Assembly: GCA_036785375.1 (NCBI GenBank)
Contig: JAWMAR010000328.1
Span: 620,001 to 684,000 of the forward strand
Source of the DNA: Leucoraja ocellata
Lineage: Eukaryota
Direction of reading: 5' to 3'
Length of the DNA: 64,000 bases
Shown: piece by piece, positions 60,001-63,000 of the stretch
Layout of the letters: each line of letters opens with the position of its first letter
Position numbering within the stretch: the first letter of the stretch is position 1
Made by a program: the position numbers

Positions 60001-63000
60001 CATGACAACTAGATCACACTTCACTCAAAAAGTAATATCTATTTTATTACAAACAATTGCAAAAATACACATATTTAAAAAAATAGACTTAAACCCTACC
60101 TTTTCAAACCCTGACAGCTAGCAGAAAAAAGAAACAACAAAACATGTAACAGACAACAAATTATATTACACATAATCTAATTGGAGCTAAACTTAAATAA
60201 TTAGATTTTTTTAATTATATGTAACCCAGCTCTGACTCAATCTCTCTCTCACACATAACACACACACATACTAAATTGCAAACATGTTAAGTACACTGAT
60301 CAATGGCTGGAACAACAGATTATATCATTCAATTAAGGAAAATATAATTCGATTTTTATTGCATCGTACTTTATTGATTTTATCAACAGATAGCAAGTAC
60401 AGATTAGAAATTGCTTTGGTGTCATCAGTTCTGCAGAGATTGCAATGAGAGTTGAAAGAAAATTAATAATCAAATTCTACTTCTGCAGTGTTAACAACTA
60501 TATTATCAGTTCAAATCCCAAATATGATCACTCCAGTAACATTAAAAAAAATTCAAATATATTATCAACTGTATTTAGCCATTAACCAGGACTTTGGGTT
60601 AGTTTTTTTTAAAACATTAGATAATTTAATCAAAAGCACCTACCCTTCTTGTGAGAATAGCGTTTGACCTTTCTTTTAGCTGAGGATCCGTAGGTAAATT
60701 CTTCCACACAATATAGGGAGTGTCATATTTTTCTCGAAGCCTTGGACATCGTTTGAAGATAAAGTCAATGAGAAAAAACTTGACTCCTCCATAAAGTCCT
60801 GGAGCAGAATGAAGCAATCAATTTTTAATAGTTATATTCTTGTAAATCGGACACCCAACTATGTATTTTTGTAAAGCCAACGTGTACAGAAATCTATCCC
60901 ATCCCTTTCACAATAATTCATATTCACGGCTTCTACACAGATGGTTACCTTCAATATTTATTCAATCAAAATCACTGCACTCAGCTTGGGTTCACTAATG
61001 TCAAATTGCAATAATTCTCAATGCTTATCATGGTTCACTTGCTTATTTGCTGTATTTAGTCATACCATACAAATGAACATCTAGAGTGAAGTTCTATTAG
61101 TGTAGATTTTTTCAATAAAATTGAACTGTATGAATTACAATTTAAGAATCGGTATACCAAAGACAATCTGAATTCAGCAGTCTCCCACCAAGCTGCCACC
61201 CAGCTTCCTTCAGATGAATATAATAAATATACTTAAATGGAAAAAATAATCTAACAATCTATACATGGTTTTGACCCACTCTATTTTATTGATATCATCT
61301 CAGATCTCAGTTGCTCAGGCTCCCTTGCCAGGTAGAAGTCGTTCTTGAAAGAAAACACTGGTTCAATTAGTTGTGGACTTGAAATTGATCCACTAAACAG
61401 ATTAAACCATAGCCCCAGTATCTCAAATGCTGAATGTGTGAAAAAAAAATCTTTGCTGTCAATTCCTTCCAAGGAAACAGATTCATGATTAAAATGACAT
61501 TTAACAGCAATTTCAAAATAATCAGGAGCAGGCTATTAAGCCCGTTGAGCCTGCTTAGCCATTCAACAGGTACATGGCTGATCTTCTACCTCAAGACATT
61601 TTTTTACCCATATCCTGCGATTTCTTTAATTTCTAGAAATCTATCGATCTGAATGCCATCAATGATTGTGTTTCCATATCTCTCCAGGATACAGAATTCC
61701 AATTATTCAACACAATCATATTCAATCCATGCAACTATTATTACCGCCATTTCCATGTGTTCAAACCTTGCTCTCCAACCTTGCTCTGTGGGACATTGTT
61801 GAAAGCGTTCTTATTATTCATATGGATTTCACCCTCCTCTCCCAGAAAAAAATCACCAAAAAATTAATCAATCAAGATTTTGCTCGATCATATTATCTAA
61901 GTGTTTTGACATCACATATTTTATTATAGACTCTCAACATGTCCCAACACTAGGTTAACAGGTCAGTAGTCTCGTTTTCTCTCACTCTCCTTTCTTAATG
62001 AGCAGTCATGCATGCCATCCTCAATCTGAGGGAACTATACCAGGCCTCAGCGTTTGAAGTTTGGGTTTATGATCTTCCAAATTGAAAATAGTAACAACAG
62101 TAAACACATAATTGTGAATTAACAAAAGCAAATATGTGATCAACCAAATCTCTGAAATTTAAATAAGTGGTGGTTAGACTAACTTATAGTTCACTTAACT
62201 GAAGAAATAACAACCGAATGCACCTCAGTGTCTATTACTTGGCACAGCAAATATATATTTATACATATTCCCTGGCATACTCTGAATACTAACAATACTA
62301 CTGCCTTTCTGCACTGAGTTGAGGATAGGTGACAAAACATCCCCCATGATTGTTATGCCTGCATGGACGTGTTCTCAGTCCTTTACTCCCTATACACTCA
62401 TGACTGTGCGGCCAAATTCTGCTCTTGCTGGAGAGTTCAGGTTAGTCCAGGGTTCAATTAATTCACATGTTTAAGTTATAAAAGTAACAGATGAGCCAAG
62501 AGAAGGTCAGATACAGACGCAGTTATGGAGATGGAAGTGGGAAGTCCTTACAATCAACACCAATACTGCAATTTATGCCAAAGACAGAAAATACTGGTTT
62601 TAGTCTAAAATTTTTATTTGGAGAACATTTCTTCTTATCAAGAACTCTGTGCCTTGGGATCAAAGATAACTCGCTTTTGCTCCATTTTGGGGGATTGAGG
62701 TAATTAACGAGGCTAACACGAGAACAAAGACTCTTGGGGCAGGGGGCGGACAAAGGGTAGGAAGTTTGAGGTGGTGGTCATCTTTATGACACCTACACAG
62801 GGTCACTGCAACCTCCCAAAGCATGGCCTCAATTGTCTTAAACCCAGCACAAGGGCTTCTTTGCCACTTTGAATGGTCATGGGCCTGAGGTTGCCAGGAG
62901 TCTGTGGGGATATGACAATTCAACATCTCCTCGAATCCTTCGTCCACTTGGAAATTTTCTTCTACGACAGAATTCAGAACAATGACTGTATCAGCAGTCT

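What the first reader, a model, noticed from the sequence alone, without database searches (positions are those of the whole stretch)
60100..60117. Candidate 18-nt microexon (LSGFEK) in GRAMD4
Seen: a strong polypyrimidine tract, TAG acceptor and AAG|gtaggg donor; 18 nt with no stop, in a phase-0 intron between ...ILTRR and IPTVV..., upstream of the GRAM domain. A UGC sits immediately before the AG (ttctgctag), and a UG-rich tract lies about 140 nt upstream. Established: UGC near the 3' splice site is typical of SRRM3/4-dependent neural microexons. I do not recall this peptide in the canonical human protein. Inference: a tissue-regulated exon that annotation could easily miss.
Basis: partly seen in the sequence, partly recalled or inferred. 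Interest (0 to 1): 0.65.

Follow-up and report, generated by a model that had tools for sequence, protein, structure and literature searches.

The report
Conserved 18-nt GRAMD4 alternative microexon
The 18-base segment is a real, very old alternative mini-exon of the GRAMD4 gene in a skate, already present in public gene models of sharks, bony fishes, frogs, reptiles and mammals, so it is genuine but not new.

Summary
On the minus strand, 60117-60100 reads CTGTCAGGGTTTGAAAAG (LSGFEK). It has a pyrimidine tract, a TAG acceptor and an AAG|GTAGGG donor, and lies in a phase-0 intron between ...ILTRR (exon end 60644) and IPTVV... (exon start 53952). By a crude splice-signal filter it is the only candidate of its quality in the intron (1 of 182) and in the window (1 of 3455).

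It is a true exon. Among 233 named GRAMD4 proteins examined, 52 carry a six-residue insert L-S-[G/Q/A]-x-[E/D]-K at exactly this junction. These include the identical LSGFEK in skates, a stingray and sharks, and variants in coelacanth, paddlefish, eel, cyprinids, frogs, turtles, squamates, one bird and three mammals. Forms with and without it are annotated in the same species, so it is a cassette exon.

It is therefore already in public annotation. I found no paper naming it.

The proposed SRRM3/4 neural regulation is untested. The UGC is weak evidence: 13% of all AGs have one within 10 nt, and so does the neighbouring constitutive acceptor.

My inference is that the insert sits in a flexible linker before the GRAM domain and builds an R-R-L-S kinase-type motif.

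The parts
60100..60117 (-). 18-nt cassette microexon, CTGTCAGGGTTTGAAAAG = LSGFEK, phase 0-0
   Evidence: The identical peptide sits at the same junction in named skate, stingray and shark GRAMD4 isoforms.
60118..60144 (-). 3' splice region: pyrimidine-rich tract, UGC at 60123-60121, AG at 60119-60118. UnAy branch-point-like sites lie further upstream, at -30, -44, -49 and -56.
   Evidence: (84% pyrimidine in 19 nt).
60094..60099 (-). 5' splice site GTAGGG. With the last exon bases it reads AAG|GTAGGG, 7 of 9 matches to MAG|GTRAGT.
60644..60798 (-). Upstream constitutive GRAMD4 exon (...LYGGVKFFLIDFIFKRCPRLREKYDTPYIVWKNLPTDPQLKERSNAILTRR). Its acceptor is ttctgctccag and its donor AGG|gtaggt.
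   Evidence: (98% identity to Amblyraja radiata GRAMD4).
53808..53952 (-). Downstream constitutive GRAMD4 exon (IPTVVSRSNVTANAMSVYSREDDGARSHSKKNSFSEIFSLAENERPLP, ending in a split codon).
   Evidence: 94% identity to P0001 residues 416-466.
60241..60269 (-). Short TG-rich run followed by a GA run, 133-151 nt upstream of the microexon acceptor. No role shown.
   Evidence: Not reported by Tandem Repeats Finder.
60025..60099 (-). Read-through frame after the microexon (VGFKSIFLNMCIFAIVCNKIDITF, stop at 60027-60025, AATAAA at 60048-60043). It matches the C-terminus of the Leucoraja erinacea isoform X4 model.
   Evidence: P0244. AATAAA is common in the window (149 sites).
45489..63888 (-). 3' part of the GRAMD4 gene: seven constitutive exons matched by tblastn (about 63888-63772, 60798-60644, 53952-53808, 53080-52988, 51419-51333, 47249-47178, 45590-45489). 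Boundaries other than those flanking the microexon are approximate.
   Evidence: One exon piece matches Pfam GRAM (E 1.8e-4).

Best explanation
The segment is the skate ortholog of an ancient 18-nt alternative cassette microexon of GRAMD4, shared by jawed vertebrates. When spliced in, it inserts six residues (consensus L-S-G-x-E/D-K) directly after two invariant arginines. The site lies in the linker between the last hydrophobic helix and the C-terminal GRAM domain, about 34 residues before the domain. Shown: the exon exists, is alternative, and is conserved in position, length and most residues across vertebrate classes. Inferred: inclusion is tissue-regulated, most plausibly enriched in nervous or endocrine tissue through an SRRM3/4-type mechanism acting on the UGC-containing 3' splice region. 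Also inferred: the insert acts as a short linear motif in a flexible linker, creating an R-R-L-S basophilic-kinase-type (PKA-like R-R-x-S) site across the exon junction that could tune how the GRAM domain or partner proteins engage. The motif reading rests on my recalled knowledge of the kinase consensus.
For: Sequence and signals. It is unique among candidates in the intron (1 of 182) and in the window (1 of 3455). The gene is GRAMD4: the flanking exon is 98% identical to named Amblyraja radiata GRAMD4, and seven exons are collinear with P0001. Orthologous insert at the same junction: 12 of 90 named proteins; 18 of 84 (16 by script, plus P0128 and P0190 read by eye); 2 of 10; 20 of 49. Variants seen: LSGFEK (skates, stingray, sharks), LSQFEK (Rhinoraja), LSGHEK (coelacanth, paddlefish, frogs, turtles, squamates, kagu), LSGHDK (frogs, donkey, warthog), LSAHDK (camel), LSGYEK (eel), LSGCEK (cyprinids). 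It is alternative: forms with and without it are annotated in the same species, for example A. radiata X1/X3/X4 versus X2 and Rhinoraja X1 versus X2. R411 and R412 before the insert are invariant in 45 of 45 aligned orthologs. The GRAM domain is at 452-567 of P0001 and the insert at 413-418. An AlphaFold2 model gives pLDDT below 50 and no regular structure across 377-454. The architecture is compatible with SRRM3/4 targets: a UGC between the branch point and the AG was reported in 79% (57/73) and 74% (51/71) of two classes of SRRM3/4-dependent microexons (bioRxiv 10.1101/2024.09.17.613571, section 10 read).
Against: No expression or junction data were available, so tissue specificity and SRRM3/4 dependence are unshown. 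The UGC is poorly discriminating: 13% of all AGs have a TGC within 10 nt and 36-41% within 30 nt, and the constitutive acceptor at 60798 has the same ttctgct. No strict yUnAy branch site lies within 80 nt. The nearest UnAy is at -30, which is not clearly the extended spacing described for neural microexons (PMC12871342 passages). The structure model is poor overall (mean pLDDT 46.1, pTM 0.27), so 'disordered linker' is only suggestive. The residue after the serine is G, not the hydrophobic residue I recall as preferred by PKA. Basic residues also precede T and S in the skipped form. 181 of 233 examined models lack the insert, including all 7 from Callorhinchus milii.
Confidence: 0.93

Rival explanations
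1. Chance match: an open 18-mer with splice-like flanks that is never spliced in this species.
For: Short AG..GT open segments are abundant: 182 in this intron. No transcript data exist for the window itself.
Against: It is the only segment of its signal quality in the window. It encodes exactly the hexapeptide annotated at this junction in other skates, a stingray and sharks, with close variants up to mammals.
Confidence: 0.02
2. In skates the acceptor mainly serves an alternative terminal exon. Splicing into 60117 is followed by read-through of the donor to a stop at 60027-60025 and intronic polyadenylation (AATAAA at 60048-60043), giving a truncated protein without the GRAM domain.
For: The Leucoraja erinacea isoform X4 model (P0244, 544 aa) ends LSGFEK+VGFKSIFLNMCIFAIVCNHKIDITF. 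The window encodes the same tail apart from one residue, then a stop.
Against: Other skates (A. radiata X1/X3/X4, Rhinoraja X1/X3/X4) and 50 or so models elsewhere splice the 18 nt as an internal cassette. AATAAA is frequent here (149 in 64 kb), so one within 80 nt is unremarkable. Such models can stem from unspliced pre-mRNA reads. The two uses do not exclude each other.
Confidence: 0.1
3. A real cassette exon whose inclusion is not neural or SRRM3/4-driven, being either broadly alternative or controlled by other factors (for example PTBP, RBFOX, MBNL or QKI, as described for non-neural microexons).
For: The UGC is not discriminating. Microexons with muscle or other regulation exist (title and abstract of PMC12064062 in the listing). 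A share of brain-regulated microexons lack UGC, and UGC is not strictly required. The insert appears in models of many species whose RNA sources I cannot see.
Against: Length of 18 nt, deep vertebrate conservation, a UGC between the Py tract and the AG, and a location in a linker beside a domain are the typical profile of the SRRM3/4 program (and 24 passages).
Confidence: 0.4

Closest known systems
Annotated GRAMD4 isoforms carrying the six-residue insert (e.g. Amblyraja radiata X1/X3/X4, Scyliorhinus canicula X1/X3, Chiloscyllium plagiosum X1, Hemitrygon akajei X1, Latimeria chalumnae X1, Danio rerio X1, Rana temporaria X1, Dermochelys coriacea X1, Camelus ferus X1)
   Same: The junction is the same (after the invariant RR, before I/V/L/P-P/Q-T), the length is the same (6 aa, 18 nt), and the peptide is identical (LSGFEK) in cartilaginous fishes. 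L, S and K are kept in all of them.
   Different: Nothing of substance. The fourth residue varies by lineage (F, H, Y, C). Only protein models could be compared, not the DNA or the flanking introns.
SRRM3/4 (nSR100)-dependent neural/endocrine microexon program of vertebrates
   Same: It is 3-27 nt long, frame-preserving and deeply conserved. It has a UGC between the pyrimidine tract and the AG and a reasonably good 5' splice site, and it lies in a linker next to a folded domain.
   Different: Neural inclusion and SRRM3/4 response are untested. The UGC is only 1 nt from the AG, and the branch-point distance is unresolved. I found no main-text mention of GRAMD4 among microexon papers. Supplementary lists, where such an exon would be named, were closed.
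Second alternative insert in the same GRAMD4 intron of birds and a frog (ASLYYSYPKSWM / VSLYCSTPKSWM in birds, VSRTSCINP in Pelobates fuscus)
   Same: It lies in the same intron and keeps the frame. It can co-occur with the 18-nt exon (Rhynochetos P0128, Pelobates P0190).
   Different: It is a different peptide and length, upstream of the 18-nt exon. No credible counterpart exists in the skate sub-intron 60643-60118: 9 open AG..GT segments, none with good signals.

Membership tests
GRAMD4 gene (ortholog) | Exon-level protein identity and collinearity with named GRAMD4 proteins | tested here: met
   The 51-aa exon translation is 98% identical to Amblyraja radiata, Heptranchias and Rhinoraja GRAMD4, and 422 hits have E<=0.001. 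Seven exons are collinear with P0001 residues 324-582.
GRAMD4 gene (ortholog) | C-terminal GRAM domain (Pfam PF02893) | tested here: met
   P0001 has GRAM at 452-567, E 5.8e-19. For the window, tested exon by exon, 1 of 6 exon pieces hits GRAM (E 1.8e-4, 21.8 bits, under the 23.6 cut-off, as expected for a 29-aa piece). The exons were not joined.
Orthologous GRAMD4 18-nt microexon | Same intron and phase: directly after the invariant RR, before the I/V/L-P/Q-T exon | tested here: met
   R411 and R412 are invariant in 45 of 45 sequences.
Orthologous GRAMD4 18-nt microexon | Six residues matching L-S-[GQA]-x-[ED]-K | tested here: met
   The window encodes LSGFEK, identical to skate, stingray and shark isoforms.
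Orthologous GRAMD4 18-nt microexon | Actually spliced in this species | not testable with these tools
   No transcript or read data are available. The closest evidence is the annotated isoforms of related skates.
SRRM3/4-dependent neural microexons | Length 3-27 nt, frame-preserving | tested here: met
   18 nt, phase 0-0.
SRRM3/4-dependent neural microexons | UGC between branch point/Py tract and AG | tested here: met
   UGC at 60123-60121. The weight is low: 13% of all AGs have one within 10 nt, and the constitutive acceptor at 60798 has one too.
SRRM3/4-dependent neural microexons | Extended branch point-to-AG distance with a strong Py tract | tested here: inconclusive
   The Py tract is strong (84%). 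UnAy sites lie at -30, -44, -49 and -56 with no strict yUnAy, and no branch-point predictor was available.
SRRM3/4-dependent neural microexons | Neural/endocrine-enriched inclusion | not testable with these tools
   No expression data. Paper searches found nothing on this exon. Supplements are closed.
SRRM3/4-dependent neural microexons | Inclusion responds to SRRM3/4 dosage | not testable with these tools
   Needs a minigene or knock-down experiment.

The most novel reading that the evidence does not exclude
The 18-nt exon is a roughly 450-million-year-old, SRRM3/4-driven neural/endocrine switch. By completing an R-R-L-S motif across the exon junction, it installs a regulated phosphorylation site in the flexible linker just ahead of the GRAM domain. 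This would put GRAMD4's membrane or partner engagement under kinase control only in the cells that include the exon. No paper I could search describes this exon or such a switch.
Probability: 0.15. Interest if true: 0.45.

Novelty: already known. Interest (0 to 1): 0.25.

Why it matters
For genome annotation, the 18-mer should be annotated as an alternative GRAMD4 exon in this skate. Models that skip it are incomplete rather than wrong. For biology, it adds one more example of a microexon held nearly unchanged from cartilaginous fishes to mammals, in a gene studied mostly for apoptosis and signalling and not for splicing. The kept L-S...K residues after an invariant RR point to a small functional motif that could be tested cheaply. 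It does not open a new kind of mechanism.

Tried and rejected
- DNA-level conservation of the exon and its flanking intron (UGC, Py tract, TG run) in other vertebrates: not possible. The only open contig collection holds bacteria and archaea, so I made no scan. Conservation rests on protein models only.
Searches used single exons or named database proteins.
- Pfam on single exons: 5 of 6 pieces gave nothing and 1 gave a sub-threshold GRAM hit.
- Tandem Repeats Finder on 59900-60700: 0 rows.
- Rfam on the whole window: 0 matches.
- Search for a skate counterpart of the bird/frog second insert: none credible.
- Pfam on three intronic ORFs that looked retroelement-like: 0 families.
- AlphaFold2 of P0001 with 45 orthologs: poor model (pLDDT 46.1). 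I used it only for the low-confidence linker, and did no fold search because low-confidence models give meaningless matches.
- Literature: GRAMD4+microexon 0 papers. GRAMD4+SRRM4 1 paper, judged from its title and abstract start only (a migraine study, not opened) to be unrelated. GRAMD4+SRRM3 0. GRAMD4+alternative splicing+exon 14 papers, none on this exon by title or abstract. The one I opened (PMC12866310 was not opened; PMC13592132 passages) concerns an alternative 5' splice site in human liver. GRAMD4+splicing+neuronal+inclusion 2 papers, neither on this exon by title and abstract start.
- A BLASTP of the read-through translation against P0244 failed on a stop codon. I compared the two by eye instead.
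- Human GRAMD4 was not examined. No human record was fetched, and unnamed database records were left unused.

Full report
**1. What is in the sequence**

On the minus strand the window reads ...ttttgttgtttcttttttctgctag|CTGTCAGGGTTTGAAAAG|gtagggttt... with the 18-mer at 60117-60100. It translates to LSGFEK without a stop.
- The exon upstream ends ...ILTRR at 60644 with donor AGG|gtaggt.
- The exon downstream begins IPTVV... at 53952 after ...ttttcacag.
- Both junctions fall between codons, so 18 nt preserves the frame.
- The UGC lies at 60123-60121, one base from the AG.
- A short TG run followed by a GA run lies 133-151 nt upstream. Tandem Repeats Finder does not report it.

**2. Is it more than chance?**

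I listed every open AG..GT segment of 3-30 nt (multiples of three) in the 6691-nt intron and found 182. Only this one combines at least 84% pyrimidines in the 19 nt before the acceptor, Y at -3, no upstream AG, and 7 of 9 donor-consensus matches.
- Over both strands of the whole window it is 1 of 3455.
- 200 shuffles of the intron gave a mean of 0.005 such sites.
- The filter is a home-made heuristic, so it ranks candidates rather than giving a calibrated probability.

**3. The gene**

The translation of the upstream exon alone (51 aa, window 60644-60796, minus strand) found 422 proteins with E<=0.001. The best are named GRAM domain-containing protein 4 of Amblyraja radiata, Heptranchias perlo and Rhinoraja longicauda, at 98% identity.
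- tblastn of the A. radiata isoform X3 (P0001) against the window places seven collinear exons on the minus strand from about 63888 to 45489. They cover P0001 residues 324-582, up to the stop.
- Pfam places the GRAM domain at 452-567 of P0001.
- Pfam run exon by exon on the window gave one sub-threshold GRAM hit among six pieces.
- The window is from a skate close to, but not identical with, A. radiata and Leucoraja erinacea. There are single-residue differences: RCPRLREKY versus RCPRFREKY, and SKKNSF versus SKKKNSF. I do not take it for human.

**4. The decisive evidence: the same insert in annotated orthologs**

I read the junction after the conserved DPQLKER...RR in every named protein returned.

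| Call | Source of the proteins | Named proteins examined | With the six-residue insert |
|---|---|---|---|
| 14 | exon search | 90 | 12 |
| 17 | search with the turtle protein P0037, residues 420-465 | 84 | 18 (16 by script; P0128 and P0190, which have an extra insert in front, read by eye) |
| 26 | search with the camel protein P0068, residues 420-465 | 10 | 2 |
| 28 | members of ten 90%-identity clusters | 49 | 20 |
| Total | | 233 | 52 |

Unnamed records were left out before counting: 30, 1, 2 and 1 respectively.

The insert by lineage:
- **LSGFEK:** A. radiata X1/X3/X4, Leucoraja erinacea X4, Hemitrygon akajei X1, Chiloscyllium plagiosum and C. punctatum, Scyliorhinus canicula and S. torazame.
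- **LSQFEK:** Rhinoraja longicauda.
- **LSGHEK:** Latimeria (5 of 7 models), Polyodon, several frogs, turtles, squamates, and the kagu.
- **LSGHDK:** ranid and other frogs, Equus asinus, Phacochoerus.
- **LSAHDK:** Camelus ferus.
- **LSGYEK:** Anguilla.
- **LSGCEK:** Danio, Cyprinus, Sinocyclocheilus.

Forms with and without the insert are annotated side by side in the same species, for example A. radiata X1 (610 aa) versus X2 (604 aa) and Rhinoraja X1 versus X2. The exon is therefore an alternative cassette.

Against this, 181 of the 233 models lack it. No examined model has it in Callorhinchus milii (0 of 7), Carcharodon, Cetorhinus, Heterodontus, Rhincodon, Stegostoma, Hemiscyllium, Mobula, Hypanus, Heptranchias, Pristiophorus or Narcine. 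That may reflect missing tissue data or real loss, and I cannot tell which.

**5. A complication in skates**

The L. erinacea X4 model (P0244) enters the microexon but then reads through the donor: LSGFEK followed by VGFKSIFLNMCIFAIVCNHKIDITF and the end.
- The window encodes the same tail, minus one residue, followed by a stop at 60027-60025.
- An AATAAA sits at 60048-60043, but this hexamer occurs 149 times in the window.
- This could be an alternative terminal exon producing a protein without the GRAM domain, or merely unspliced RNA in the evidence behind that model.
- Either way it suggests that the acceptor at 60118 is used in a close relative. That rests on the assumption, which I could not check here, that this gene model is backed by transcript evidence.

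**6. Regulation**

- The literature supports the general rule. SRRM3/4-regulated microexons have a bipartite UCUCUC...UGC enhancer. [quoted passage not shown]
- Neural microexons tend to have a longer branch point-to-AG distance, with medians of 45 versus 34 nt in human (PMC12871342, passages).
- In this window the motif is weak evidence. A TGC lies within 10 nt upstream of 13% of all AGs and within 30 nt of 36-41%. The constitutive acceptor at 60798 carries the same ttctgct.
- Branch-point-like UnAy sites lie at -30, -44, -49 and -56, so the spacing is unresolved.
- No expression data are reachable, so tissue regulation remains a reasonable but untested inference. The role of the TG run is unknown.

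**7. What the insert may do**

- The two arginines before the insert are invariant in 45 of 45 aligned orthologs.
- L, S and the final K of the insert are kept in all 52 insert-bearing models.
- Inclusion therefore always builds R-R-L-S. This fits the basophilic-kinase (PKA-type R-R-x-S) consensus, which I recall rather than tested here.
- The insert (P0001 413-418) lies 34 residues before the Pfam GRAM domain.
- It sits in a stretch (377-454) that an AlphaFold2 model leaves unstructured with pLDDT below 50. The whole model is poor (mean pLDDT 46.1, pTM 0.27), so this is only suggestive.
- I propose, as inference, that the exon adds a short regulatory motif in a flexible linker.

**8. Known or new**

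The exon is already present in RefSeq and UniProt models of many species, including the identical peptide in cartilaginous fishes, so as a sequence feature it is already known.

I found no paper that names it:
- GRAMD4+microexon: 0 papers.
- GRAMD4+SRRM4: 1 paper, a migraine study judged unrelated from its title and abstract start only.
- GRAMD4+SRRM3: 0 papers.
- GRAMD4+alternative splicing+exon: 14 papers, none on this exon by title or abstract. The one I opened (PMC13592132, passages) treats an alternative 5' splice site in human liver.
- GRAMD4+splicing+neuronal+inclusion: 2 papers, neither on this exon by title and abstract start.

Genome-wide microexon catalogues list events in supplementary tables, which were closed. 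The exon may well be listed there.

**9. What stayed unchecked**

- DNA-level conservation of the exon and intron flanks, because no vertebrate genome collection is available.
- Any transcript evidence for this species.
- Human GRAMD4.
- Unnamed database records.
- The closed metagenome and viral collections.
- Paper supplements.

**Verdict**

The interpretation as a real alternative microexon is strongly supported. The neural SRRM3/4 regulation is plausible but untested. Novelty is low.

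Noticed in passing
P0128, P0130, P0132-P0136, P0150, P0151, P0155, P0157, P0191, P0192, P0203, P0204, P0026 (birds); P0190 (Pelobates fuscus): The same GRAMD4 intron holds a second alternative insert in birds (12 aa, ASLYYSYPKSWM or close variants) and a 9-aa one in a frog (VSRTSCINP). It lies upstream of the 18-nt exon, and the kagu and Pelobates models carry both. No credible counterpart was found in the skate sub-intron 60643-60118.
   Followed up: partly
window 60025-60099 (-): Reading through the microexon donor gives a 24-residue tail and a stop, with AATAAA at 60048-60043. 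The Leucoraja erinacea isoform X4 model ends in the same tail. This is either a possible alternative terminal exon or an artefact of unspliced RNA.
   Followed up: partly
window 58275-58867: A GC-rich block lies inside the same intron. It has a 134-nt inverted repeat (97% complementary, arms 58300-58433 and 58712-58845), a second inverted pair, and an 82-nt direct repeat. Long open frames run on both strands. It is probably a repeat element; its nature was not determined.
   Followed up: no
window 49197-50012: Two nested inverted repeat pairs (94-97 nt, 94-96% complementary) flank a 133-codon open frame on the plus strand at 49412-49810. Pfam found no family for that frame. It may be a transposon remnant in a GRAMD4 intron.
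   Followed up: partly
P0003, P0247 (Heptranchias perlo), P0044 (Latimeria), P0030 (Pangshura): Other lineage-specific inserts appear elsewhere in GRAMD4 models, for example a 33-residue insert after the coiled coil in Heptranchias and inserts within the EKHFLQEELRKL helix in Latimeria and Pangshura. They lie outside this window's exons and were not examined.
   Followed up: no
window 60799-60810 (-): The constitutive acceptor of the upstream exon reads ttctgctccag, the same ttctgct as the microexon acceptor. This is a caution against reading UGC alone as a mark of regulated splicing.
   Followed up: yes
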